From: Shigella phage VB_Ship_A7
Sequence record: MK685668
Strand: one strand, 5' to 3'
Length of the DNA stretch: 40,058 nt
Shown: piece after piece, positions 2,609-13,865 of the stretch
Position numbering within the stretch: the stretch's first letter is position 1
How the letters are laid out: every line of letters starts with the position of its first letter
Position numbers and translations under genes: made by a program
The notes under the pieces: generated by a model
Seen by the model: the letters and a program-made list of their open reading frames with translations, nothing else
Told to the model about the DNA's origin: nothing
Database searches by the model: none

Positions 2609-3054
2609 TACTTAGCCTCCTTCTTAGTTTGCATTTCTTTGATTGTATCTTGGAGTGCACGAATCCACGCATCCCCTCTTTGAGTTACTCCGATAAGACG
2701 CTTACTAAACTCTTCGTCAAGTTCGGCTCGACCATCAACGAGGCATCCACCGTTATCTTGGAGTTCTCGTGTGGTGGCTGATAGTTTGACGCGCAAGCGC
2801 TTACCATCGTTACGCAAATCATTAATGACCCTATCAGTGCTGCCTTCCAGCGCCGCAAGGTCTTCTTGGTATTGTCGTGAGATTTCGTTGACAGCAGCCT
2901 GTTTATTCGCAGTCGCCTCAGTTTGCTTGATGTACTCATTGTGCACCTCCTGTTCCCATTTAGTGTTAGCTTTGTCATATCCGTGGTTATACGCAAGGGT
3001 AATCCCCAAGGCAAACGCAGCGATTATGGCGTAGCTCTTTAAATTCTTGAGCAT
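2608..3054 (-). CDS. 18.5: i-spanin (Rz-like, T7 gp18.5 homolog)
   Basis: 148 aa; N-terminal hydrophobic anchor ([14 protein letters not shown]) followed by a charged coiled-coil region; sits between small terminase and large terminase as in T7. Confidence 0.8.
2685..2939 (-). CDS. 18.7: o-spanin (Rz1-like lipoprotein, T7 gp18.7 position) nested in a different frame inside the i-spanin gene
   Basis: Embedded ORF in another frame; ATG at 2939 gives about 84 aa (T7 gp18.7 is 83 aa); contains a hydrophobic stretch ending in lipobox-like VSAC. Start codon choice is uncertain. Confidence 0.55.
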   Translation of the reverse strand: MSTSSKLRRLRINRLLSTKSHDNTKKTLRRWKAALIGSLMICVTMVSACASNYQPPHENSKITVDASLMVEPNLTKSLVSVLSE

Positions 3055-3152
3055 AACTACCCTCCCATATTTTCAGATTTCACGTAGCGTTACCGTGAGT
3101 TGTGTTGAAATATCATAAAGACCACTAGATGTAGCGGCCTTGAGTTATTCTA

Positions 3153-3419
3153 TCAATTCAGTGTGTACTTCTCATCTTCAGTGAGACCGTCCGCGCCCAC
3201 TAGGTTCTGGTACTCTTCGAGTCCATCTGCCAGTCCACCAAGGATGTTACGGTCTGGCTGTAACTTGGAGACTTGGAACTTGTGGCGCTCTAACAGTTTC
3301 CCGATAGCGTTGTACAGTTGAGGTGTGCGCTTATCGTCATCCTGAAGGTCTTTCAGCATACGTTGAGCCATCTCAGTGTCCAGCATCTCAAGGAATTGAA
3401 TTAAGGACTTATCAGACAT
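3153..3419 (-). CDS. 18: Terminase small subunit / DNA maturation protein
   Basis: 88 aa beginning MSDKSLIQFLEMLD, matching recalled T7 gp18 (89 aa); synteny. Confidence 0.9.
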   Translation of the reverse strand: MSDKSLIQFLEMLDTEMAQRMLKDLQDDDKRTPQLYNAIGKLLERHKFQVSKLQPDRNILGGLADGLEEYQNLVGADGLTEDEKYTLN

Positions 3420-3674: not shown

Positions 3675-5540
3675 TTACTCCTTGTCTTTCTCCAACTCCT
3701 GAATGCGTGCATCTAGGTTCTTCACAAGCAGCATCAATCCACCGATAATCTGGTTAGGGTCTGGAGACTGCATCCCATCGCTCATAACGTCAACCGCTTC
3801 CGGCCACAGGCGGATTAAGTCCTGTGTGATGAATCCTGCACGAGAACGCTTACCGACTGTCTTAACGGAGCGCCCATGGTTATCAGTCCAAGTTTTGTCC
3901 TTGTACTTATAGGATACCGGAATGTAGGACCGGATGATGTTGAGCATATCGTCTGCATCGCGAACAACCTTGAGGTCCTCTTTCAGACGCCTATCAGACG
4001 AAAACCAGCGGAATCCTACTGCCGAACCATCAACGGTCCCTTCTATGTAGTCCCCACCACGGCCTGTGTAGAGTTGGACCCCTCCAGGCGGCTTGGCGAA
4101 CTGGTACTTATTGTGTAGGAAGTTATACAGGTCCCCACCATAATTGTCCCACAGTCCTCCACGTAAGTTCCCTTCATAGTTAAAATGACACCTACCCATT
4201 CCTGAATAAATGATCTGACCGATTATGTTGTTTCCGGCCTCAATCCTCGCACCATTTTCACCTTGGAAGTGTCTGGCATGGACCTCACCGTTACCAGTGA
4301 ACGTAACGCGTCCTAGCTCGGCAGTGTTCCCAGAGTTTACAGTACGAAAAACAAAACCACCGTCACCTAAACCCTTGTTGCATATGAAGTTCGCTTCGCC
4401 ACTGGATTGCTCGTTCCAAGCAAAATGTAAACCTTGTAGTCCGATGTGCATTGGGCTGTTCTTAATATGAAGTCGCCACATTGAGTTATAAGCATTCCCA
4501 TTAGACTGTTGCCGTAAGCCTCCATTGGCTACCACGATTCCATCGACCAAAATATCCTTCTGTGCCTGTATGTCTCCACCAACAACCAACAAATCACCGA
4601 TGCTCACCCCTTTATCAAATTGACCAGCACCAGTGGAGGTTATGCCACCTCCTACGATGTTTCCGGGCGTTGCAATATTACCTTTAAATGCTACGTGATT
4701 CCCATCAACCGAATCTAAGGCACCAGCAAAGTCATTCATGCTTTCTAACTTGTCAGCCTCTACAATTGCACGGTCGCGTGCCTCTTCTGCCTTGATTCGT
4801 GACTGACGAGCAGCCTCATTATGTGCAGCCGCCTGTCCCTCGGAGGTTAGTGCATCACTAGCAGAGGACGCAGCGTTACTCTCAGCGCTAATAGCACGGT
4901 CGCGTGCAGCCTCAGAACTGACAGCAGCACTTTCAGAGCGGATACCATATTGCTCAGAATGAACTGCGAAATTGTTAGCTTTAGTTGCTTCCTGTTGAGC
5001 ACGGTCAGCTTCACTCTTGGCACGGTCAGCTTCTGTACGTGCCTTAACGTAGGACTGATATGCCCCATCGTTCCACTGCTTGACTGTGCGCAAGTTTAGA
5101 GCATCATACTCACCAACCGGGTCAGCCACGTTAACAATACGGCGACCACGAGCATCTAAGTGCCCATCATTATTGACACCAATAGTATCAGCAGTAAGGT
5201 CGCGTGCTTCCTCGGCAACGTGAAGCGTTTGAATCTGTGAAATGTTCAGGTCATATGCGCGAAGGATTGAGCCATCAGCAAAGTCAACCAGACGGTCACT
5301 CGCAGAGGTAAAGCGGCGAATCTCAATCATCTGGTAACCATCAGCATCGGTCCACGCACGGGACGTTGTAATTTGAGTCTTAGTGGTAAAGCGATAGTCC
5401 TGATTAAGAACAAGTTCCTTACGGTCTTTACCAATTAGTGTTACTTTTACGAACTTACGTGCCAGATACTCAAAGGTAATTGTGAAGTCCACGGCACCAT
5501 TAAGTGGGTAAGTACGCACAGTGGAAATTTTGTTAGCCAT
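3675..5540 (-). CDS. 17: Tail fibre protein: conserved N-terminal tail-attachment domain, divergent distal region, C-terminal intramolecular-chaperone-like domain
   Basis: 621 aa; the first ~150 aa (MANKISTVRTYPLNG...GVNNDGHLDARGRRIVN) match the T7 gp17 N-terminus; the C-terminal ~107 aa begin SSDRRLKEDL, the signature of self-cleaving chaperone (peptidase S74-like) domains. Confidence 0.9.
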   Translation of the reverse strand: MANKISTVRTYPLNGAVDFTITFEYLARKFVKVTLIGKDRKELVLNQDYRFTTKTQITTSRAWTDADGYQMIEIRRFTSASDRLVDFADGSILRAYDLNISQIQTLHVAEEARDLTADTIGVNNDGHLDARGRRIVNVADPVGEYDALNLRTVKQWNDGAYQSYVKARTEADRAKSEADRAQQEATKANNFAVHSEQYGIRSESAAVSSEAARDRAISAESNAASSASDALTSEGQAAAHNEAARQSRIKAEEARDRAIVEADKLESMNDFAGALDSVDGNHVAFKGNIATPGNIVGGGITSTGAGQFDKGVSIGDLLVVGGDIQAQKDILVDGIVVANGGLRQQSNGNAYNSMWRLHIKNSPMHIGLQGLHFAWNEQSSGEANFICNKGLGDGGFVFRTVNSGNTAELGRVTFTGNGEVHARHFQGENGARIEAGNNIIGQIIYSGMGRCHFNYEGNLRGGLWDNYGGDLYNFLHNKYQFAKPPGGVQLYTGRGGDYIEGTVDGSAVGFRWFSSDRRLKEDLKVVRDADDMLNIIRSYIPVSYKYKDKTWTDNHGRSVKTVGKRSRAGFITQDLIRLWPEAVDVMSDGMQSPDPNQIIGGLMLLVKNLDARIQELEKDKE

Positions 5541-5611: not shown

Positions 5612-8600
5612 TTACTTCTTGTCAGACTTGAGGTGAACACCATTGGCCTCATAGAACTTGATGAGCATCTGTTGGGAGATTGGGTCGTTAGGAATCATCT
5701 CTCGGTGGGCGTTCATTAAGCCAGTCATCATCTCACGCTCGGTCACTTTGTTTGGAGCCGTAAGGACACCATAAGCATTTCGACCAGCAGCAAGGGTAGC
5801 ACCAGCGAACCCAAGAGCAGGAACCTGTTCACCAATAGCGCCCATAATGGAATCACCCATGTCACGAGAAGTTACCGCCTTGTTCCGTTCTTTCTTATCC
5901 TCTCCTTTAGGGAGAATCGTAGAGCGGACCATGAGACCTTGGTCGTAACCAGCAGCACCCATAGCGAAGTTTGCGATACTCAGAGGCGACCCAAGGTGTG
6001 AACTTCGGGAAGCCGCAGCGTAGGCAATCATCTTAGGGTCCAGAGCTTTCTTCAGGTAGTCCTTCTGTTGCTCTTTAGGAAGACCAGCAGCCTTCAAGTG
6101 GGCCTGTGCCACATAGTAGGAGCCAGCGATACCACCAGAGATTGCATAGGTCAGCGCCATATCCATAGCACGATGGTTCTTAAAGGCTTCGTGACCGGAG
6201 CGGATAAACTTAGAGTTCATCGACTTGATTACGAAAGACTTGAACTGAAGGACCAACTTAGCGGCAGCACCAAACGCATGGGAATCCTGAAGTGAAACCT
6301 TGTTAGGTCTCAGCATTGTCTCATCAGCAACCTTATCAGCCAGTCGCCACAGGTCCATAGCTCGCGGGTCATTAGCCAGCTTACGCTTGTCCTTGAAGGT
6401 GTACTTGCCGTCAGCACCTTGAGTGACGTTCTCACGGATGAGGTTCTGAATGCCTTCCCACTGTTCCTTTGAGATACTCGCAGATTTCAGCATGTCGCCT
6501 TTAATCCACTTGTTGGCACCCTTACCAGTAATGGCATGAGTTACCACATCTCCCATGACACCCTGACGGGCCATATCCAGAATGTAGTTGGAAGTACCGT
6601 TGAGGAACTTAGTGAACGGAGAGCGAGCAGCCAACTCTTGAGTGGTGTGCTTAACCGTACCAACAACCTTAGCGACAGCATCAGGTGTATCAGTAGACTC
6701 ACGGAGTCGCTGAATGATGTCTTGACGAGTCGGTCGGATTAACTGGTCGAACTCTTTACCAAACACCATAGAGTGGAGTTCTTTGAGTTCACTACCAGAG
6801 ACTGGCTTGTTACGGAACGCTAGGTCACGCAGAGCGGGAATGCCATGCAGCATCGCACGGGTGTTACCCTTCGACAATAGACCAGCGATTTCAGTTAGGT
6901 TCTGCAAGCCCATATATGCGTTCTTCGTAAAGAAGGACATATCGGATAGAGAGCGAACCATAGTGTCACCTACGGTATCCTGATTGCGTCGAGCACGACC
7001 AGTGACAATCTTAACGAAATCCTTAAGTGCTTCCACTTCACCTTTCATTGTGCCTTTACCTTCAGACTTCTTATCAAGAGCCATAATAGCGTCCTTGAGT
7101 TCAGCAGTAGTCTTGCCTGTGCCTCCCATGATAGCAATATCACCATCAACACGGCGGTCATATGCTGGCATCACATGCTTCATATCGAAGTCACGAAGGT
7201 CATTCACAGAGAACTGTTGACCATTCGGTAGAGTGATTGGCACGTCAGAATCAAACAGGTTACGGGCTTCAAGGAATGAGTTGTTCTCAATCCCAACGAG
7301 ACCCTCAATGTTATCGTCAATGACACTTGAAGAGTTGAACTCATCGGTCTTCGCAATACCATAAGCCTTGTCCATAGCGTACTTCTCAGCCATCTGACTA
7401 AGCATAGCCTCTTCGTCTACCTTTGGTTCCACCTTCTCGTCTGTGCCAAACTTCTGGCGCTCTGAAGGTTTAGCCGGGGTGGAGTCGTAGGCTTTACGGA
7501 ATGCTTGACCATCGGGGGTACGCACGCCACCAACTGATTCGTCTGTTCCACGGTACACGTAGTCAGGACTCTCAGTCTCAGCGATTCGGTACATCTCGGT
7601 AGCGATGCCTTTGCGGCGGTACTTCTCGGACACCTCAAGACTTGGATTATGCCACACGTCTCCCTCACGTTTAGCGAACTCTACGCTGCCAATGTGGTCT
7701 CCCTTTTTGGTGAACACATCCACCGCGAACTCAGCACCATCAGTTGTCTTAGCTGTGTAGTAGACAAAATCACCATCCACCTTGTAAGGAGTCTCACCAG
7801 AGTAGTCTCGCTTACCAGCGAAGTAATCACCTTGGAGTTCGCCATTAGAGACCTTAGTGATGCTAGTTGAGTTACCACCAGTCACCAGTGAGTCAGGCAT
7901 TACCGGAGCAGCCTCAGCACCTCTCAGGAAGTTCTCAGCTTCAGCTTGTGCACCTTTGGCAGTAGAGGCGGCTTCTTCAGCTTCGGCGGTGGCTTTGGTG
8001 ATTCTATCTTGGACCTTAGCAGCCTGTCCTTTCATGTGGTCGAGACGCTCTGTGTTAATACGGACGTGAGACTTCTGGGTCTCAATCATCTTCTTCCGGC
8101 TCTCAATCTTAACAGGAATGGTTTTGCTATTAGGTTTAGCAGCTAGTTTTTCTTCCAACTCCTTCAACTTAGCCTCATGCGAAGCCAGTCTGTCCTTGGA
8201 GTTCTGGAGTTTCCTTTCACGGTCCGCAACTCGCTTCTCAGCGTTGGTCAGAACGTCTTTTAGTTCCGCTACCTTATCACTTGCCCGTGTAGCTGCATCG
8301 TCCAGTTTCATCCGGTAACTGGCTGTGTCTACAGACTCTTGGCTTCTGAGGAAGTTCTCAGTGTCAGCCGCAAGTTTGGCATCAGCTTCAGCTTTGGAGA
8401 AAACGTCACTGTTAACCTGTTTAAGGTATTCATCAATACGGGCCTTGACTTCAGGACGCGCATGATATGATGCCATCAGGCTTGCAGCAACTGCTTCCTG
8501 TAAACCATCAGTGCCCCCAAGAGCCTGTGAGTACACCTGCTTGGCTTCCCGCGAGTACACATGAGGAACGTAAGTCCCTTTGTGACGACTGTTAGGGAAG

Positions 8601-10546
8601 ATAGAGGTTGCCTTGTTACCGAACATCGACGGGTTCTCCATCATCTCACGCTTGAGGTCATAATGTTCCTTCACGATGTCCATAACCTTACGCTCTTCCT
8701 TGGTCAAGTTAGCTTGAAGTTCAGGTCTCTCGATAGCCTCACTGATACGACGATAGATTGTTTGACGGGCACCTTGAGCACCACTCTTGAACATACCCAC
8801 AGACCACTCAGGGTCAGCCATTGCTTCCTTCATTGCACTATAGAGGTTATTGTAGGTTCGATGGTTGAGACTACGCAGTCGCTCTATGATGTCCGATGTA
8901 GTAGAACCAAACTTACCATGTGAGCCTGACTCCATACCTGTAGGTGAGCGCACTAAGTCCTTTGCGAGACCACGGATTTCAGAGTGTTCTGAACGTAGGG
9001 TTTTCAAGCCGATTTCACTTAGTCCACGCATAGGCAATCCCCAAGCAGCACGTTCAGGGTCCACTTCAGCGAACTCTCTGGCAGTCATTGGGTTAGCCAA
9101 GTTGGTATCACTAATAATGGAACCATCACGCAGCACTACCGCACCCGGTTCAGTTTCGAGAGGTGCATACTCAACGCCGTTGTGCTGTGAGAACACTCGG
9201 TCTTCACTAGGAGGCATACGACTTGCATCATATCCACCAGTGTTACGGGCAGTCTCACGAGCCTCGAAGCGCATCTGTGTAGCAGAAAACGGGTTCTCAA
9301 TCTGTTCAGTACCAGACTTACGGAGACCTGCAGCAACACCATCAGCAACCGCAGTGAGTCCACCAGCAAGCAGCATACCAGCAAGAGCAGCTTCCGCATA
9401 GTGAGCATCGCCACCAGCAACGGATGTACGCAGACCCTCAGAGGCAACGTTAAGTGCACCAGCTTGAGCACCCACCATCAACGCCTTGTTCACCAGCTTG
9501 AATCCCTTGGCTGTAGTCCCTGCGAGTGGGATGTAGGTCAACGGGTCCACACCAGCACCAATCAGGCCAGCAGACAGCTTGGCACCAAGTCCAGCTTCAG
9601 CAGCCTTAGCGTCAGCCTCGTAGTTCTCGTTAGCCAGCTTGATTAGCTCATCAAGGTTCTCAGCGGAACCACCAAGCACAACGTTAATGTACGCAGGGTT
9701 TTTCACTTCTTTGCGAATCTTGTCGAGTTCTTCAGGCGACCAAATGTGGCTATTAAACCGTGTCGGTTGAAGTACATCAGTGAGCACATCAAAACCATTG
9801 TCACGCTTACTAGCACGGAAGGCAACACCCAAGGTTGAGTTGGAGAGTTCTGCTTCAGCAGCACTACCGAATCCGAAGAAGGTTGAACGCTCATTGGCTT
9901 CGTCAAGAGTTGTTCCTTTTGCTTCCCAATAGTCTTTACCGAATGGCTGATTGGGAGCGGTCTGTTCTTTACCTTGAAAGGACATTGAGTGAGACTCAGG
10001 GAGTTCTGTAGTTACCTTTCCTTTCTCCCCGATACCACTCATAGCAGCGTCGAACGAAATCCCTTTACCCTTTGGGGTGATACCACCGAAGGACTCAATG
10101 TCGCCACTCTTCGGAGACTTAGCGACATCCAGAAGTGAGCGCAAATAGTTACGCCCTTCGTCACCAATACCAGCAAAGTTACCGGAGTCGTAGGCTTCCA
10201 ATTGAGGCTTACCGTTTCGGCCTTCGCCTTGGTTGTACGCAAGGGCAGCTTTCAGTTCATCCCCATTGTACTTCTTAACGAGGTCTGCAAGGTAACGAGC
10301 ACCAGCATCGATAGACTTAGCCGGGTCGTTGAAGTCCTCATCAGACTGTAGGCCGTAAGCCTGACCAGTTGCCTTAGTGAACTGCATGACACCCCGTGGC
10401 CCTGTTGGTGATTGGGCCGTAGGTTTGAATCGGGACTCTACCCAACCGACCTTCCGAAGAAGGCCGTAGGAGACTCCATGTGTGTCAGCAGCTTGTTGAA
10501 ATAACGCATCATATTCATGCGGTTCGTTCGGGTTATACTTATCCAC
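5612..10546 (-). CDS. 16: Internal virion (core) protein D with N-terminal lytic transglycosylase domain; enlarged (1644 aa)
   Basis: GTG start at 10546 with AGGAGG 6 nt upstream; N-terminus MDKYNPNEPHEYDALFQQAADTHGVSYGLLRKVGWVESRF...GVMQFTKATG is the T7 gp16 SLT-type region; about 326 aa longer than T7 gp16 (1318 aa). Confidence 0.95.
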   Translation of the reverse strand: MDKYNPNEPHEYDALFQQAADTHGVSYGLLRKVGWVESRFKPTAQSPTGPRGVMQFTKATGQAYGLQSDEDFNDPAKSIDAGARYLADLVKKYNGDELKAALAYNQGEGRNGKPQLEAYDSGNFAGIGDEGRNYLRSLLDVAKSPKSGDIESFGGITPKGKGISFDAAMSGIGEKGKVTTELPESHSMSFQGKEQTAPNQPFGKDYWEAKGTTLDEANERSTFFGFGSAAEAELSNSTLGVAFRASKRDNGFDVLTDVLQPTRFNSHIWSPEELDKIRKEVKNPAYINVVLGGSAENLDELIKLANENYEADAKAAEAGLGAKLSAGLIGAGVDPLTYIPLAGTTAKGFKLVNKALMVGAQAGALNVASEGLRTSVAGGDAHYAEAALAGMLLAGGLTAVADGVAAGLRKSGTEQIENPFSATQMRFEARETARNTGGYDASRMPPSEDRVFSQHNGVEYAPLETEPGAVVLRDGSIISDTNLANPMTAREFAEVDPERAAWGLPMRGLSEIGLKTLRSEHSEIRGLAKDLVRSPTGMESGSHGKFGSTTSDIIERLRSLNHRTYNNLYSAMKEAMADPEWSVGMFKSGAQGARQTIYRRISEAIERPELQANLTKEERKVMDIVKEHYDLKREMMENPSMFGNKATSIFPNSRHKGTYVPHVYSREAKQVYSQALGGTDGLQEAVAASLMASYHARPEVKARIDEYLKQVNSDVFSKAEADAKLAADTENFLRSQESVDTASYRMKLDDAATRASDKVAELKDVLTNAEKRVADRERKLQNSKDRLASHEAKLKELEEKLAAKPNSKTIPVKIESRKKMIETQKSHVRINTERLDHMKGQAAKVQDRITKATAEAEEAASTAKGAQAEAENFLRGAEAAPVMPDSLVTGGNSTSITKVSNGELQGDYFAGKRDYSGETPYKVDGDFVYYTAKTTDGAEFAVDVFTKKGDHIGSVEFAKREGDVWHNPSLEVSEKYRRKGIATEMYRIAETESPDYVYRGTDESVGGVRTPDGQAFRKAYDSTPAKPSERQKFGTDEKVEPKVDEEAMLSQMAEKYAMDKAYGIAKTDEFNSSSVIDDNIEGLVGIENNSFLEARNLFDSDVPITLPNGQQFSVNDLRDFDMKHVMPAYDRRVDGDIAIMGGTGKTTAELKDAIMALDKKSEGKGTMKGEVEALKDFVKIVTGRARRNQDTVGDTMVRSLSDMSFFTKNAYMGLQNLTEIAGLLSKGNTRAMLHGIPALRDLAFRNKPVSGSELKELHSMVFGKEFDQLIRPTRQDIIQRLRESTDTPDAVAKVVGTVKHTTQELAARSPFTKFLNGTSNYILDMARQGVMGDVVTHAITGKGANKWIKGDMLKSASISKEQWEGIQNLIRENVTQGADGKYTFKDKRKLANDPRAMDLWRLADKVADETMLRPNKVSLQDSHAFGAAAKLVLQFKSFVIKSMNSKFIRSGHEAFKNHRAMDMALTYAISGGIAGSYYVAQAHLKAAGLPKEQQKDYLKKALDPKMIAYAAASRSSHLGSPLSIANFAMGAAGYDQGLMVRSTILPKGEDKKERNKAVTSRDMGDSIMGAIGEQVPALGFAGATLAAGRNAYGVLTAPNKVTEREMMTGLMNAHREMIPNDPISQQMLIKFYEANGVHLKSDKK

Positions 10547-10569: not shown

Positions 10570-12849
10570 TTAGTCTTTACCAGTCAGCGTATCCAGAATA
10601 CCCTTGCCACTCACGCTATCGTACATGCTGCCAGAGCGTTTAGGCTTCTTAGCTTCACGTTCACGCTTGCGGTTCATAGCTCGTGTATGTAGGGTTCGCT
10701 TGTTGGCATCTTTGAGTGCCTTGTTACGGGCTTCCTCGTCCAGCTTCGCTTGGTTCTCTTGGTACATCTTCGAGAGCAACTGCTTGTCGTACCGAATGTT
10801 AATCTGTCCGGTTGTATCCATCAGGTAGATAGAGCCACCACGCTCGAACACAGTGAGTTGCTTGTTGGTAACCCAAGGGTTTGTCTCAGCTATTTTCTTA
10901 GCGGCTGCATCGATAATGTCCTTACCTTGTTTCCAAGAGTCCGGGTCATCAGTCACACGCAAAGAGTTTCTCGTCAAGACACCGATGGTATCACCATCAA
11001 CACCATCAGCAGTGAGAGTCGTTGTGTTCTCTTTGAGAAACTTATCGACCTGTTGCACTGCCATGTCTGGGTTACCTGTACGGTACTTAACGGAGTCGTA
11101 AATCTTACGAGCACCATTCTGGAGAGTTGACGGCATATACTTAATCTCAGGAGACAGTGAGTTGTTCATGAGGGAGGCCCATGCCTTGTCATCCTCGTAT
11201 CGCATCTCTTTGGTAAGAGACTTTTGAGCCTTGTCAGCATCTAAGAGAAACTGAGGGTCAATCCCTAGGTTGTCCATCATGTCCATAGTGAGGAACATCT
11301 CAGCCTTATCAGGATATAACGCAGCGAATAACTCAGGGTCAGCATTACGAACGCGACGTAGGGCATTGAGAGCCACACCGCCACCTTCTGGCATCTTCCC
11401 GTTAATCACAGCGGACGTCCATTCCTTCTCAGCGTCACCAATCAGTTCACCAACCGCAGTACGGAAAGCGCCCTTCTCGGAGTCAGCCTTGAGGTAGTCC
11501 AGCTTCATTCGGTCCTTCTGTTCATTAGGGATGTTCATAGCATCAATGTCAGCCAGCTTCTTGTTAGCGTAGTTAACCATATCACTATGAGTGAACTCAC
11601 CAGTGTTCTCGTTGGTTGGCATATCGCCATACGCAGTAGACACATATTGACCATTGAGTCGCTTCTGGAACTGTGCGTCGATGACGTTCATCTTGTTCAT
11701 GGACTTCTGTTGCTTATCCATTTCCTTGGCTAACTCAGCGGTCTCTCGCTTCATGCGGTCCTGCATCTGCGTCTGTGCGCTGATTAGAGCCTGACGTTCA
11801 GGTGTCATCTCTTCACCCGGTTGCAGTTTATCCAGTTCTGCCTTGATGGACTGTAGTTGTTCCCAGCCAGTGTTCACGTTCTCTTGGTTCAACGCAGAGT
11901 TCACATTGAGTTGGAACGCTTCGGTCTTCTTGGCATTCAATTGGAACTCATTATGCTGAGCCTTGACCATCAAGTTATTCCACTGTTCGGCACCCATCAG
12001 TTCCTTGAAGGTAGTCTCCTTGCCATGCAGTTTTACCTTACGGTTCTCAATCTGTTGGAGGAACTGCCCACCACCCTCACGGTTAACCACGTCAGAGAGA
12101 CCTTGGCTAATCATGGTGAACGCTTGGTCATCACTAGGGATACTTCCGGTCGTCAATCCAGCGGTGAAGTAGTTCTCAAAGAACTCACCAGCATACGGAG
12201 AACGTAGGGTTTCCGGGTCGTTCAACACAGAGTTTAACTCTACGCGACTGTTGATGACAGCACCCTTCTTAGCTTGGTCACTCAGGAAGTTATCGTGAGC
12301 ACCATAGAGGGCGATGTTACGTTCAGTGATGTCAGAGTTGAATCCCTTCTGATAGAACTCATCAGTCTCGTCAATACCGAACTGTTCCGCATAGTTCTTA
12401 GCGGCTTCTTGTAGTCGGCTATGACGGAACTCTTCCAACTCCTGACGAGTACGGAACTCACCGTTCTTAACCTTCTGTGCCACTTCGTCATCTACGAGGT
12501 ATGCAGCGTTACGACCAGTCTTAATCTTAAGTGCTTCCATCGCGTATGGGTCATCCTGATATAACAGGGTTCCGTTCTTAATGGCCTCACGGCGCTGTTC
12601 TGGAGTCAGCTTACGAATAATCTCGTTAGAGCGCTCGTCTGCTTTGTCCTTCTGGCGCTGGTCATACTTCATGTAGGCATCCGCACCCATCTCAGCAAGT
12701 TTACCTACAGTGCCAATCAGCTTAGACTTCTCGGCATACTTAGGGTCTTCATAGACGGTTGCAGCCTTCACTTCCACACGACCAGTGCCACGCAGACGAC
12801 TAGTAGACGGAGCGTTCATGCCACCCAATGCTTGTGCTAACTTACTCAT
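10570..12849 (-). CDS. 15: Internal virion (core) protein C
   Basis: 759 aa (T7 gp15 is 747 aa); conserved stretch ERSNEIIRKLTPEQRREAIKNGTLLYQDDPYAMEAL; synteny between gp14 and gp16. Confidence 0.93.
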   Translation of the reverse strand: MSKLAQALGGMNAPSTSRLRGTGRVEVKAATVYEDPKYAEKSKLIGTVGKLAEMGADAYMKYDQRQKDKADERSNEIIRKLTPEQRREAIKNGTLLYQDDPYAMEALKIKTGRNAAYLVDDEVAQKVKNGEFRTRQELEEFRHSRLQEAAKNYAEQFGIDETDEFYQKGFNSDITERNIALYGAHDNFLSDQAKKGAVINSRVELNSVLNDPETLRSPYAGEFFENYFTAGLTTGSIPSDDQAFTMISQGLSDVVNREGGGQFLQQIENRKVKLHGKETTFKELMGAEQWNNLMVKAQHNEFQLNAKKTEAFQLNVNSALNQENVNTGWEQLQSIKAELDKLQPGEEMTPERQALISAQTQMQDRMKRETAELAKEMDKQQKSMNKMNVIDAQFQKRLNGQYVSTAYGDMPTNENTGEFTHSDMVNYANKKLADIDAMNIPNEQKDRMKLDYLKADSEKGAFRTAVGELIGDAEKEWTSAVINGKMPEGGGVALNALRRVRNADPELFAALYPDKAEMFLTMDMMDNLGIDPQFLLDADKAQKSLTKEMRYEDDKAWASLMNNSLSPEIKYMPSTLQNGARKIYDSVKYRTGNPDMAVQQVDKFLKENTTTLTADGVDGDTIGVLTRNSLRVTDDPDSWKQGKDIIDAAAKKIAETNPWVTNKQLTVFERGGSIYLMDTTGQINIRYDKQLLSKMYQENQAKLDEEARNKALKDANKRTLHTRAMNRKREREAKKPKRSGSMYDSVSGKGILDTLTGKD

Positions 12850-12855
12850 TATTTA

Positions 12856-13449
12856 TTACCTCCCGGTCTTAGTGCCTTTAGCGGCAACAATTGGAGCAGG
12901 CTTGTTCGGAGTCTTGCTATCGAAAGCCCCACTTGCAGCAGCAGCCCCAGCAGAAGCCCCAGCCGCTACCAGAGCGTCCAGAAGTATTGACTTCTTGCTT
13001 TTCAGCTTAGGTGCAGACTTGTTGATTTCATTGATTTGACTCACTGTGTTCTCTCGGTTAGCAATACGCTTCCCTAAGATGACACTGTAGTCACGTTTGT
13101 AGTTCTCAGTGAGACCTTGAGACTCTCGAAGGAAGTCACCCTCAGTAATGCGAGCTACACGTTCCATAGAGTTACCTTCAAGCATTCCCTCACCGATAGC
13201 CGCTCGGATAGTCCCCATGTTCCTCACTCGGTTCATGTTGGCTTGAGTCAAGTCTTGGACAGTAGAGTCGATTAGGTCACGAGATTCTAACTTTAGGTTA
13301 GCGTCGTTATAGTTCATCTCCTTTATCATCTGCCAGCTTTGACGACGACCTTGGTCAATCTGTGCAGCCTTTGCATGATTAGCTTGTATACCACCCATAA
13401 GCATGGAAGTGCCTTGCATTGCAATGGGGATTGCCTCAACCCAGCACAT
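12856..13449 (-). CDS. 14: Internal virion protein B
   Basis: 197 aa (T7 gp14 is 196 aa); position between gp13 and gp15. Confidence 0.8.
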   Translation of the reverse strand: MCWVEAIPIAMQGTSMLMGGIQANHAKAAQIDQGRRQSWQMIKEMNYNDANLKLESRDLIDSTVQDLTQANMNRVRNMGTIRAAIGEGMLEGNSMERVARITEGDFLRESQGLTENYKRDYSVILGKRIANRENTVSQINEINKSAPKLKSKKSILLDALVAAGASAGAAAASGAFDSKTPNKPAPIVAAKGTKTGR

Positions 13450-13451
13450 AG

Positions 13452-13865
13452 TTAACCTCCTATTGTGAATAGTTGGAATTGATTACTGTCACCAGTAAAC
13501 TCATTATGGAACACCGCACCGATGGACTTCAAGAACCTAATGTGGGACTTGTTGCCGACCCAAACGTAGTTCCAGATAATCGGATACTGTTTGAGCATGA
13601 TATCACGATATTCCAGAATGAGCTTTCGGAACTCTCTTCGGGTCTTCATACTCAATTTCCACACACGGGCAGACGTTACGAACCACACTTGGTCCCCACA
13701 GTTACCACCGATAGCCACAGGCATCCCATGAAGTGACATAGTGACACACTCAGAGGCTGGTGGAAAGCTAGGTTCAATGCCGTAGGCTTTTGCCTCAGCG
13801 ATGTCTTCCGGTGACGGTGTGAATCTCTCGAAGTCTGTTTCTTTGGTAGGTCTGATTATTAACAT
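13452..13865 (-). CDS. 13: Internal virion protein A (gene 13 position)
   Basis: 137 aa (T7 gp13 is 138 aa); directly downstream of a phi13-type promoter; assigned by synteny and size. Confidence 0.7.
   Translation of the reverse strand: MLIIRPTKETDFERFTPSPEDIAEAKAYGIEPSFPPASECVTMSLHGMPVAIGGNCGDQVWFVTSARVWKLSMKTRREFRKLILEYRDIMLKQYPIIWNYVWVGNKSHIRFLKSIGAVFHNEFTGDSNQFQLFTIGG

What the first reader, a model, noticed from the sequence alone, without database searches (positions are those of the whole stretch)
7397..8401. Ejected core protein gp16 carries an extra block of about 330 aa (coiled coil plus a GNAT-like motif) not expected from T7
The gene 16 homolog is 1644 aa, against 1318 aa for T7 gp16. 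The N-terminal lytic transglycosylase region and the C-terminal part look T7-like. Residues about 716-1050 differ in character: about 165 aa of charged coiled coil (KLKELEEKLAAK, AEAEEAASTAKGAQAEAENF) followed by a globular segment of about 130 aa. That segment contains VSEKYRRKGIATEMYRIAE (nt 7577-7630), which resembles the acetyl-CoA-binding motif A of GNAT acetyltransferases (R-x-x-G-x-G/A). gp16 is ejected into the cell ahead of the DNA, so an added enzymatic domain would act at the first moment of infection. A host-modifying or anti-defence effector role is my inference, not something the sequence proves.
Basis: partly seen in the sequence, partly recalled or inferred. Interest (0 to 1): 0.75.

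Follow-up and report, generated by a model that had tools for sequence, protein, structure and literature searches.

The report
Mini-acetyltransferase cassette inside phage ejection protein
The DNA-injection protein gp16 of this T7-like phage carries a rare, swappable 333-residue insert, a long helical hairpin plus a stripped-down acetyltransferase-type domain, which would reach the host cytoplasm before any phage gene is expressed; whether it is an active enzyme is untested.

Summary
The gene 16 homologue (5612-10546, minus strand, 1644 aa) differs in length from T7 gp16 (1318 aa) and Kvp1 gp16 (1315 aa) by one in-frame block, aa 710-1042 (nt 7421-8419). All other indels are 4 aa or shorter.

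The block is made of two cassettes:
- Cassette A (aa 735-875) is predicted to be a long antiparallel helical hairpin. It is bracketed by a 37-nt imperfect direct repeat.
- Cassette B (aa ~912-1022) is a minimal GNAT-superfamily domain with an intact R-x-x-G-x-A loop (RRKGIA). Linkers predicted to be disordered tether it on both sides.

In the phage collection, A alone occurs in about 16 phages and B alone in about 10 phages of four genera. No record has both. About 2% of 1267 gp16-bearing records have any insert at this site.

B belongs to a family of ~90-110-aa mini-GNATs found in internal-virion-position proteins of other podophages and in giant polyvalent proteins, a theme already described computationally. 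B is under stronger purifying selection than the surrounding gp16.

The insert lies in gp16-C, which the literature models as the cytoplasmic hub. A virion-delivered, acetyl-CoA-dependent effector is therefore plausible. Catalysis and target are unproven, and the fold lacks canonical GNAT elements. I rate it a new variant of a known kind, of moderate interest.

The parts
5612..10546 (-). Gene 16 homologue (internal virion protein D, an ejectosome component), 1644 aa, GTG start
   Evidence: ORF list and translation. 63% identity to T7 gp16 over 1307 aligned residues. 93-94% nt identity to the gp16 genes of Berlinviruses pO103 and P483. It lies between a 759-aa gp15 homologue (10570-12849) and a 621-aa ORF in the gp17 position (3675-5540).
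10187..10504 (-). N-terminal lytic transglycosylase (SLT) domain, aa 15-120
   Evidence: Pfam PF01464, E=4.6e-26; coordinates checked.
7421..8419 (-). Whole insert relative to T7/Kvp1 gp16, aa 710-1042 (333 aa)
   Evidence: MAFFT against T7 and Kvp1 gp16 shows one block; all other indels are <=4 aa. Translation checked.
8345..8419 (-). 'Stub', aa 710-734 (QVNSDVFSKAEADAKLAADTENFLR). It is present in every insert-bearing gp16 and continues the core helix.
   Evidence: Alignment of 11 gp16 proteins. 100% nt identity to P483. Part of helix 698-803 in the AF2 model.
7922..8344 (-). Cassette A, aa 735-875: charged helical hairpin (39% K/R/E/D), with the turn at aa ~804-808 (KPNSK)
   Evidence: AF2 model maddce0e6504f has helices 698-803 and 809-878, with pLDDT 92-98 around the turn. 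tblastn finds A without B in 18 records of about 16 phages, including P483, Carena and PZJ0206. 96.5% nt identity to P483.
8332..8368 (.). Upstream copy (in gene orientation) of the 37-nt imperfect direct repeat bracketing cassette A; encodes ...DTENFLRS...
   Evidence: the repeat finder family D1: 76% identity, spacing 423 nt, equal to the length of cassette A.
7909..7945 (.). Downstream copy of the 37-nt direct repeat; encodes ...EAENFLRG...
   Evidence: the repeat finder family D1. pO103-type genes have a single copy joined directly to cassette B.
7814..7921 (-). Linker 1, aa 876-911, predicted to be disordered
   Evidence: pLDDT 30-44 for aa ~883-911 in the AF2 model. dN/dS is higher than in the domain in the divergent comparisons.
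7481..7813 (-). Cassette B, aa 912-1022: minimal GNAT-superfamily domain (five beta strands, alpha3, alpha4)
   Evidence: AF2 model ma606617dfcd0: pLDDT 80.9, pTM 0.76. Pfam Acetyltransf_1 at 24.5 bits, above the 20.7 cut-off, when scanned alone. The family profile hits only GNAT chains in the PDB, best E=2e-5. In Foldseek against the PDB, at least 48 of the top 50 hits are acetyltransferases. The top BFVD hits are phage 'NAT_SF' proteins at E=3e-4. dN/dS is 0.02-0.15.
7601..7618 (-). Motif A / pyrophosphate-binding loop R-R-K-G-I-A (aa 977-982), matching the pattern Q/R-x-x-G-x-G/A
   Evidence: Translation checked. In the 52-row family alignment, G is invariant, and A and the second R are >=90% conserved. 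The motif sits between strand 4 and helix alpha3 in the model.
7421..7480 (-). Linker 2, aa 1023-1042 (TPAKPSERQKFGTDEKVEPK). It is shared by A-only, B-only and A+B genes and is predicted to be disordered.
   Evidence: Alignments. pLDDT <50 for aa 1027-1041.

Best explanation
SHOWN.
- The window is a T7-like (Berlinvirus-type) genome.
- Its ejection protein gp16 carries an in-frame 333-aa insert at a site that is uninterrupted in about 98% of relatives.
- The insert is two cassettes. A is a helical hairpin of two ~70-residue arms (about 10 nm) that extends a core helix. B is a ~110-aa minimal GNAT-superfamily domain with a conserved acetyl-CoA pyrophosphate-binding loop (RRKGIA). Two linkers predicted to be disordered tether B.
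- Each cassette occurs alone in other phages.
- Within gp16, B is much more conserved than the gene around it and is found in four genera. It therefore moves horizontally and is under strong purifying selection.
- Homologous mini-GNATs sit in the internal-virion-protein position of unrelated podophage contigs and in giant polyvalent proteins.

INFERRED MECHANISM.
- The insert is packaged as part of gp16 in the capsid core and ejected with it.
- It refolds on the cytoplasmic side of the inner membrane as part of the gp16-C hub through which the DNA enters.
- There the mini-GNAT uses host acetyl-CoA (or another acyl-CoA) to acylate a target near the entry site before any phage gene is transcribed. 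The target is most likely a host protein.
- The hairpin serves as a spacer or stalk.
- The site works as a 'cargo slot' in which recombination exchanges cassettes between T7-like phages.
For: - One block, fixed site.
- Rarity: 59 of 60 evenly sampled records, out of 1267, have no insert. A is in 18 records and B in 12, with no overlap.
- Modularity and recombination: the 37-nt direct repeat is spaced exactly 423 nt, the length of A. nt identity is mosaic: stub, A and linker are 96.5-100% identical to P483, and B is 92.5% identical to pO103.
- GNAT homology: Pfam above the gathering score on the isolated module, with 47-49 of 52 rows of alignment A2 matching GNAT families. The profile against the PDB gives only GNATs, E down to 2e-5, aligned over beta3-beta4-alpha3. 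The AF2 model has pLDDT 80.9 and pTM 0.76. Foldseek top hits are GNATs in the PDB and phage NAT_SF proteins in BFVD.
- Motif A is conserved across a family that is only 20-38% identical overall.
- Selection: dN/dS is 0.02-0.15 in B against 0.10-0.24 in the flanking core. dN of B against the Przondovirus and Teetrevirus copies is 0.026-0.036, against 0.20-0.35 in the flanks.
- Recurrence in ejection-protein positions: L014 reads nozzle, 148-aa GNAT, 155 aa, 677 aa, then an 870-aa SLT+mini-GNAT protein. L018, L019/L020 and L021/L022 are phage contigs with DNA polymerase A, and the mini-GNAT protein sits in a block of large, mostly unannotated genes. Acinetobacter phage Ab9 has a copy in a 2840-aa protein.
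- Polyvalent-protein partners: LPD1, LPD39, RadC and SLT by Pfam; methylase and SNF2 helicase by my reading of the sequences.
- Cytoplasmic location of the insertion site: gp16 residues 411-1118 are modelled as the cytoplasmic hub. The DNA-clamp mutations G737D, I754T and E761K lie just downstream of the site (PMC8954989).
- GNATs in polyvalent proteins have been predicted to modify proteins on entry (PMC5512222).
Against: - No activity, cofactor-binding or target data exist.
- The domain is truncated relative to canonical GNATs. Pfam matches cover only profile positions ~34-87 of 116. The model has no alpha1-alpha2 arm and no beta6-beta7. The segment where beta5 should lie is not predicted as a strand and has pLDDT of about 66.
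- Fold matches are weak: Foldseek against the PDB gives E>=0.01 and TM 0.4-0.55.
- Relatives occur as tandem arrays of up to 7 copies in one protein. That is more typical of binding modules than of enzymes.
- The cytoplasmic topology of gp16-C is a composite model, not an observed structure.
- Presence of full-length gp16 in this phage's virion is assumed from T7.
Confidence: 0.45

Rival explanations
1. Cassette B is a GNAT-derived but non-catalytic module. It would be a CoA- or ligand-binding domain, or a protein-binding, decoy or oligomerisation domain. It would decorate the gp16 hub, for example by tethering or sequestering a host factor at the DNA entry site, or by stabilising the core stack. 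No acyl transfer would occur.
For: - The fold is truncated, lacking the substrate-binding alpha1-alpha2 arm and beta6-beta7.
- Structural similarity is weak.
- Relatives form tandem arrays: 4 copies in P0002, 7 in P0024 and 6 in P0032.
- No conserved acidic or Tyr catalytic residue could be assigned from the alignments.
Against: - The best-conserved feature across the whole family is exactly the pyrophosphate-binding loop R-x-x-G-x-A.
- Small GNATs of about 90-105 aa that are active or bind CoA are known. AcrVA5 acetylates Cas12a (PMC9114340). Pfam has a minimal-GNAT family, PF14542, which 17 of 52 members match.
- Strong purifying selection fits either reading.
Confidence: 0.3
2. The mini-GNAT acts in the producing cell or inside the particle rather than in the newly infected cell. 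It would acylate gp16 itself or other core or capsid proteins during morphogenesis. This would be analogous to the proposed morphogenetic role of the GNAT-like gp13 (IVP-A).
For: - The internal-virion-protein module of T7-like and other podophages already contains a separate GNAT-like gene in the gp13 position (PMC4819975; PMC6775973). L014 shows this directly.
- Acetyl-CoA is also available in the producer cytoplasm.
Against: - About 98% of related gp16 genes, including close relatives such as Kvp1, lack the cassette. It is therefore not needed for assembly.
- The mini-GNAT family shows no detectable relationship to the window's gp13 (hhalign).
- The same domain occurs in polyvalent proteins of conjugative-element type that have no capsid (PMC5512222).
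Confidence: 0.12
3. The insert is a functionally neutral mosaic passenger. It would be tolerated at a permissive surface loop of gp16 and spread by recombination between T7-like phages, with no role for the phage.
For: - The insert is flanked by repeats and disordered linkers.
- It is absent from most relatives.
- The gene is a mosaic.
Against: - dN/dS of cassette B is 0.02-0.15, lower than in the essential flanking core.
- The domain is maintained in four genera and in distant podophages at the same kind of position.
- The capsid has limited room, so a useless 36-kDa addition per gp16 copy should be selected against (inference).
Confidence: 0.07
4. The GNAT resemblance is a chance match to a short motif, and the globular segment belongs to an unrelated fold.
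For: The single-sequence phmmer search against PDB sequences found nothing significant. The full-length protein scored just below Pfam's cut-off.
Against: - The isolated module scores above the Pfam cut-off, and 47-49 of 52 family rows hit GNAT families.
- Every one of the 60 listed PDB profile hits is a GNAT.
- Independent fold prediction retrieves GNATs.
Confidence: 0.03

Closest known systems
T7 gp16 (internal virion protein D; DNA-ejectosome component with N-terminal lytic transglycosylase)
   Same: - N-terminal SLT domain.
- 63% identity over the whole remaining length.
- Same gene order, gp15-gp16-gp17.
- Presumably the same packaging in the core and the same ejection.
   Different: - 333 extra residues are inserted after T7 residue ~714, inside the region modelled as the cytoplasmic hub. 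The site is just upstream of the DNA-clamp mutation cluster at residues 737-761.
- T7, T3-like, K1F and about 98% of sampled relatives have nothing there.
GNAT domains of phage and plasmid 'polyvalent proteins' (Iyer, Burroughs, Anand, de Souza & Aravind 2017, PMC5512222)
   Same: - A small GNAT embedded in a large multidomain protein predicted to be delivered together with the invading DNA.
- The window's domain retrieves such proteins directly. Their partner domains include LPD1, LPD39 and RadC by Pfam, and ParB-like, methylase and SNF2 segments by my reading of the sequences.
- A protein-modifying role on entry was proposed for them computationally.
   Different: - That paper does not mention gp16 or ejection proteins of T7-like phages: 0 occurrences of 'gp16' or 'ejection'.
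- Here the host protein is a well-characterised, structurally solved ejectosome subunit. The domain sits at a defined internal site with a separable hairpin cassette.
- Whether it is the same one of the two GNAT families they define was not tested.
Minimal GNATs: Pfam PF14542 (Acetyltransf_CG), including Arabidopsis At1g77540 (described as a 'minimal acetyltransferase'; from my own knowledge), and AcrVA5 (PMC9114340)
   Same: - A size of about 90-110 aa that retains the beta4-alpha3 acetyl-CoA loop.
- 17 of 52 family members match PF14542.
- AcrVA5 shows that a small GNAT from a mobile element can disable a defence protein (Cas12a) by acetylation.
   Different: - PF14542 scores are below its cut-off: 19.6 bits against 30.
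- AcrVA5 was not among the top fold or sequence hits.
- Those proteins are free-standing and expressed after entry. This domain is part of a virion protein.
Virion-delivered phage enzymes (N4 virion RNA polymerase; T4 Alt ADP-ribosyltransferase, the latter from my own knowledge)
   Same: The logic is the same: an enzyme packaged in the capsid acts in the host cytoplasm before phage gene expression. For N4, the vRNAP is an ejection protein that forms part of the ejectosome (PMC13434306, abstract).
   Different: The chemistry and folds differ, and there is no homology. Activity of the present domain is unproven.
T7 gp13 / IVP-A (GNAT-like by HHpred according to Hardies et al., PMC4819975)
   Same: A GNAT-like protein encoded in the same internal-virion-protein module. 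The window has a 137-aa homologue at 13452-13865.
   Different: It is a separate gene, and hhalign detects no relationship to the mini-GNAT family (probability 0.05%). It is present in essentially all T7-like phages, whereas cassette B is rare.

Membership tests
GNAT (GCN5-related N-acetyltransferase) superfamily | Significant sequence-profile match to GNAT family models | tested here: met
   - Isolated module: Acetyltransf_1 at 24.5 bits, E=3.4e-5, above the cut-off of 20.7.
- 49 of the 52 rows of alignment A2 match Acetyltransf_7 and 47 match Acetyltransf_1.
- Family profile against PDB sequences: all 60 listed hits are GNATs, best E=2e-5.
GNAT (GCN5-related N-acetyltransferase) superfamily | Motif A: Q/R-x-x-G-x-G/A loop between beta4 and alpha3, which binds the pyrophosphate of acetyl-CoA | tested here: met
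   - RRKGIA at aa 977-982.
- G is invariant, and A and the second R are >=90% conserved in 52 sequences.
- The motif lies between a strand and helix 85-96 of the model.
GNAT (GCN5-related N-acetyltransferase) superfamily | Complete GNAT fold (beta1-alpha1-alpha2-beta2-beta3-beta4-alpha3-beta5-alpha4-beta6-beta7) | tested here: not met
   - The model has five strands followed by alpha3 and alpha4 only. There are no alpha1/alpha2 helices and no strands after alpha4.
- The expected beta5 segment is not predicted as a strand and has pLDDT ~66.
- Pfam matches cover only the central third to half of the profiles.
- Foldseek TM is 0.4-0.55.
- It is therefore a truncated or minimal version, filed at superfamily level only.
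GNAT (GCN5-related N-acetyltransferase) superfamily | Binds acyl-CoA and transfers the acyl group to an amine | not testable with these tools
   This needs purified protein. No docking or biochemical tool was available.
T7-type gp16 / internal virion protein D | Full-length homology to T7 gp16, including the N-terminal SLT domain | tested here: met
   63% identity over 1307 aligned residues; SLT at E=4.6e-26.
T7-type gp16 / internal virion protein D | Position in the structural module between gp15 and the tail-fibre gene gp17 | tested here: met
   The ORF order on the minus strand is 13452-13865 (gp13), 12856-13449 (gp14), 10570-12849 (gp15), 5612-10546 (gp16), 3675-5540 (gp17 position). The annotated neighbours in pO103, P483 and Kvp1 are the same.
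T7-type gp16 / internal virion protein D | Packaged in the capsid core and ejected into the cell envelope | not testable with these tools
   Assumed from T7 (PMC8954989). It needs virion mass spectrometry for this phage.
Polyvalent proteins (Iyer et al. 2017) | One polypeptide from a phage or conjugative element that combines two or more effector-type domains and is delivered with the DNA | tested here: inconclusive
   - gp16 combines SLT, the ejectosome body and a mini-GNAT.
- The mini-GNAT is shared with proteins carrying LPD1, LPD39 and RadC.
- However, gp16 is primarily a structural ejectosome subunit, it has no LPD domains itself, and delivery was not tested here.

The most novel reading that the evidence does not exclude
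T7-like phages have a dedicated 'cargo slot' in the cytoplasmic hub of gp16. Small, fast-refolding effector cassettes are exchanged into this slot by recombination. The mini-GNAT is an active, pre-packaged acyltransferase held at the DNA entry pore, on a 10-nm stalk in this phage. At time zero it inactivates a host defence or DNA-processing protein, for example a nuclease or sensor that attacks the entering DNA end, or it modifies RNA polymerase. This happens before Ocr or any other early protein can be made.
Probability: 0.25. Interest if true: 0.75.

Novelty: new variant of a known kind. Interest (0 to 1): 0.5.

Why it matters
Counter-defence in T7-like phages is usually attributed to early genes such as ocr, which need time to be expressed. 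A catalytic domain built into the ejectosome would act earlier than any of them.

The system is unusually testable:
- T7-like coliphages are easy to engineer.
- The T7 gp16 structure and ejection model exist.
- Nature provides near-isogenic gp16 variants with no insert (Kvp1), A only (P483), B only (pO103) and A+B (this window).

The results would show whether the widespread mini-GNATs of polyvalent and ejection proteins are real enzymes, and what they target. They would also indicate that the site after T7 gp16 residue ~714 tolerates insertions of 170-330 residues. That could be used to deliver engineered cargo with phage particles.

Tried and rejected
- The k-mer-indexed protein search with cassette B alone returned only one fragment, P0001, which turned out to be an A-type piece.
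- The same search with the insert plus flanks was swamped by coiled-coil words and gave 3 hits. Neither search was useful for a census. I used tblastn against the phage collection and the exhaustive HMMER search instead.
- Single-sequence phmmer against PDB sequences found nothing significant. Only the family profile worked.
- I tested whether cassette B derives from the neighbouring GNAT-like gp13. hhalign found no relationship, so I rejected this.
- I looked for compositional signs of foreign origin. GC is ~0.50 across the insert, as in its flanks, so this was uninformative.
- I considered an intein or homing-element origin. The family scan of the protein found no such domain, and the cassettes are simply in-frame coding segments, so I rejected this.
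- Literature searches found no report of a GNAT domain inside T7-like gp16. Mentions of GNAT near internal virion proteins refer to the separate gp13-position gene.
Full report
**Setting**

The window is essentially a whole T7-like genome on the minus strand. Megablast places it in the Berlinvirus group. The best matches, phages P483 and pO103, reach about 92-93% identity over about 92% of a 24-kb query. The phage is therefore not itself in the collection.

The gene in question is ORF 5612-10546(-), 1644 aa. Its GTG start aligns with the start of T7 and Kvp1 gp16. It sits between homologues of gp15 (10570-12849) and the tail-fibre gene (3675-5540).

**Checking the observation**

T7 gp16 (NC_001604) is 1318 aa and Kvp1 gp16 is 1315 aa. 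A three-way MAFFT alignment puts all the extra length in one place, window aa 710-1042, after T7 residue ~714. Every other indel is 1-4 residues. Identity to T7 elsewhere is 63%.

My limits are nt 7421-8419. The SLT domain is confirmed at aa 15-120, E=4.6e-26. The motif string is at nt 7577-7633.

**The insert is two cassettes, not one**

I aligned eleven gp16 proteins fetched from annotated phage records. The alignment shows four parts:
- a 25-aa 'stub' (aa 710-734);
- cassette A (aa 735-875);
- cassette B with its N-terminal linker (aa 876-1022);
- a 20-aa linker (aa 1023-1042).

P483-type genes have stub+A+linker. pO103-type genes have stub+B+linker. The window has both cassettes.

tblastn finds A in 18 records (about 16 phages) and B in 12 records (about 10 phages). 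No record appears in both lists. B-bearing phages belong to Berlinvirus, Przondovirus, Teetrevirus and Kayfunavirus.

Cassette A is exactly bracketed by a 37-nt imperfect direct repeat (7909-7945 and 8332-8368), spaced 423 nt, which is the length of A. Both copies encode ...ENFLR.... That offers a simple route for gain or loss by recombination.

The gene is a mosaic. Stub, A and linker are 96.5-100% identical at the nt level to P483, and B is 92.5% identical to pO103. The N-terminal 709 codons are closest to pO103, and codons ~1300-1400 are closest to Kvp1.

The site is normally uninterrupted. 1267 phage records contain the junction region. In an evenly spaced sample of 60, 59 have no insert, and the single exception is the B-bearing LET1. 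GC content does not mark the insert as foreign.

**What cassette B is**

Pfam on the full protein gave several GNAT families just below threshold at aa 939-992. On the isolated module, Acetyltransf_1 passes its curated cut-off with 24.5 bits against 20.7.

An exhaustive HMMER search of 1.84 billion representatives found 37 proteins at E<=1e-3. Some were spurious repeat proteins. About 29 carry a domain with the pattern ...V-x-V-x-x-x-[YH]-R-R-K-G-[ILV]-A-[ST]-x-M-Y-x-x-A-E...G-x-x-R-T-x-x-G-x-A-F-R, and several carry it in multiple copies.

- A 26-sequence profile of this family matched only GNAT structures in the PDB. These include AAC(3)-I, EctA, Naa10 and RimI, with a best E of 2e-5. The alignment runs over the beta3-beta4-alpha3 region.
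- In the 52-row alignment A2 (the window module plus 51 relatives), 49 rows match Acetyltransf_7, 47 match Acetyltransf_1 and 17 match the minimal-GNAT family PF14542.
- The motif-A glycine is invariant, and the alanine and the second arginine are at least 90% conserved. Overall identity is only 20-38%.

AlphaFold2 with this alignment gives a confident model (pLDDT 80.9, pTM 0.76). It has five beta strands, then helix alpha3 immediately after RRKGIA, a less confident loop, and helix alpha4.

Foldseek retrieves acetyltransferases for at least 48 of the top 50 PDB hits, but weakly (E>=0.01, TM 0.4-0.55). The best BFVD hits are uncultured-phage 'NAT_SF domain' proteins (E=3e-4, TM up to 0.6). A 'large polyvalent protein associated domain' protein is also listed.

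I conclude that B is a genuine but truncated GNAT-superfamily domain. The acetyl-CoA-binding core is kept. The alpha1-alpha2 arm and the beta6-beta7 strands are absent, and beta5 is doubtful.

**What cassette A is**

A second AF2 model of aa 690-1075 predicts one continuous helix from the gp16 core through the stub into A (aa 698-803). A tight turn follows at aa 804-808, and a return helix spans aa 809-878. pLDDT is 92-98 around the turn. This is an antiparallel hairpin with arms of about 70 residues, roughly 10 nm long by my estimate at 1.5 Å per residue.

The segments aa 883-911 and aa 1027-1041 have pLDDT below 50. The mini-GNAT is therefore predicted to be flexibly tethered. Relative domain positions are undefined (pTM 0.42).

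Because the hairpin's two ends are adjacent, A can be present or absent without moving B relative to the core. This matches the natural variants.

**Is the insert functional?**

Nei-Gojobori estimates between the window and seven other B-bearing genes give dN/dS of 0.02-0.15 for the mini-GNAT. The flanking gp16 core gives 0.10-0.24, and the linkers are higher in the divergent comparisons. Several dS values are saturated, so the ratios are rough.

Against the Przondovirus and Teetrevirus copies, dN in B is 0.026-0.036 while dN in the flanks is 0.20-0.35. The cassette has therefore moved between genera much more recently than the genes diverged. Both results argue against a neutral passenger.

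**Where related domains occur**

I looked up contigs for six of the relatives. Four gave contigs long enough to read gene order.
- L014 reads nozzle, 148-aa GNAT (the gp13 position), 155 aa, 677 aa, then an 870-aa SLT+mini-GNAT protein, with the terminase further on. This is a clear internal-virion-protein module.
- L018, L019/L020 and L021/L022 are phage contigs of 22-45 kb encoding DNA polymerase A. L019/L020 also has an SU10-type adaptor, a lysozyme and a holin. L021 has endonuclease I. In each, the mini-GNAT protein lies within a block of large, mostly unannotated genes.
- The contigs for P0004 and for the solo 112-aa P0026 were too short to be informative.

Acinetobacter phage Ab9 has a copy in a 2840-aa protein next to a 773-aa 'endolysin'.

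Other relatives are giant proteins. Pfam finds LPD1, LPD39 and RadC in them. From reading the sequences I also see ParB-like, N6-methylase and SNF2-helicase segments. This is the 'polyvalent protein' class of Iyer et al. 2017. They reported two GNAT families in such proteins and predicted protein modification on entry. Their paper does not mention gp16 or ejection proteins (PMC5512222).

I found no paper describing a GNAT domain inside T7-like gp16. GNAT mentions near internal virion proteins concern the separate gp13-position gene. The family is not detectably related to the window's gp13.

**Mechanism**

The review by Swanson, Hou and Cingolani divides T7 gp16 as follows (PMC8954989):
- a periplasmic N-terminal part (residues 1-228);
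- two putative membrane regions (residues 243-410 and 1119-1290);
- gp16-C (residues 411-1118), assigned to the cytoplasmic toroid seen by cryo-ET.

The DNA-clamp mutations G737D, I754T and E761K lie in gp16-C. The insertion site (T7 ~714) lies in gp16-C, about 20 residues upstream of that cluster.

Acetyl-CoA exists only in the cytoplasm, so an acetyl-CoA-dependent domain makes sense there and would not make sense in gp16-N.

My best-supported reading has these steps:
1. The cassettes are packaged with gp16. The review reports four copies in the T7 core stack and six after ejection.
2. They pass through the tail unfolded. A helical hairpin and a ~110-aa domain are the kind of cargo that can refold quickly (inference).
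3. They end up at the cytoplasmic mouth of the DNA channel.
4. There the mini-GNAT acylates a nearby target before phage transcription begins.

Which steps are shown: the anatomy, the homology, the selection and the recurrence in ejection-type proteins. Which are inferred: packaging, topology, catalysis, the target and any anti-defence role.

The main rival is a non-catalytic binding or structural module derived from a GNAT. It is supported by the truncation of the fold and by tandem arrays of the domain in some relatives. A morphogenetic role, a neutral passenger and a chance resemblance are less likely, for the reasons given under the rival explanations.

**Novelty and verdict**

Already known are the domain family, the principle of effector domains in DNA-co-delivered phage proteins, and GNAT-like genes in the internal-virion-protein module. 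What appears new:
- a fixed, rarely occupied insertion site in the otherwise conserved, structurally characterised T7-type gp16;
- its occupation by two separable, horizontally exchanged cassettes;
- their combination in this phage, which gives the longest gp16 of the set (1644 aa).

I rate it a new variant of a known kind. Interest is moderate (0.5). It is not a new principle, but it is an unusually tractable system for testing whether these widespread mini-GNATs are time-zero effectors.

Noticed in passing
window 13452-13865 (-): A 137-aa gp13 (IVP-A) homologue. The literature reports that T7 gp13 matches acetyltransferases by HHpred (PMC4819975, PMC6775973). This phage would therefore carry two unrelated GNAT-like elements in one internal-virion-protein module. 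hhalign of the mini-GNAT family against this gp13 found no relationship.
   Followed up: partly
window 7909-7945 and 8332-8368: A 37-nt imperfect direct repeat (76% identity, with an exact core AGGAAGTTCTCAG) spaced 423 nt. It exactly brackets cassette A and encodes ...ENFLR... twice. It is a likely recombination substrate for gain or loss of the hairpin.
   Followed up: yes
window 5612-10546 (-), compared with L001, L002 and L003: gp16 is a fine-scale mosaic. Codons 1-709 are closest to pO103 (95.9% nt). The stub, A, linker and following ~100 codons are closest to P483 (96.5-100%). Codons ~1300-1400 are closest to Kvp1 (96-98%), against ~85% to the other two.
   Followed up: partly
L011 (Acinetobacter phage Ab9, PP763254), ORF from locus position 1637, about aa 790-890: A 2840-aa 'hypothetical protein' next to a 773-aa 'endolysin' contains one mini-GNAT copy (tblastn E=2e-4, 32% identity). 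It looks like a giant internal or ejection protein of an unrelated podophage.
   Followed up: partly
L012 (MT837363, human-gut 'Bacteriophage sp.' scaffold, 7033 nt): The whole scaffold is one open reading frame. It combines a mini-GNAT copy (...VLEDYRRQGIATQML...) with segments that look like an N6-adenine methylase and an SNF2-type helicase, which is a typical polyvalent-protein architecture. The methylase and helicase identifications come from reading the sequence, not from a family scan.
   Followed up: no
L014 (Logan SRR13003735 contig), genes 2827-3273 and 5775-8387: A distant podophage has both a free-standing 148-aa GNAT in the gp13 position and an 870-aa SLT+mini-GNAT protein in the gp16 position. 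This mirrors the arrangement in the window.
   Followed up: partly
Proteins P0002, P0012, P0014, P0024, P0032: The mini-GNAT occurs as tandem arrays of 3-7 copies per protein. In some proteins the copies are separated by a recurring 'GDWKKEGY' linker, alongside segments that look ParB-like. This is unusual for an enzyme domain and is unexplained.
   Followed up: no
L016 and L017 (contigs encoding P0026): A solo 112-aa mini-GNAT shares the N-terminal 'YSGETPY' motif with the gp16 version. In L016 it lies near genes for a Peptidase_M78/HTH pair and a 4'-phosphopantetheinyl transferase. It may be a free-standing source of the cassette.
   Followed up: no
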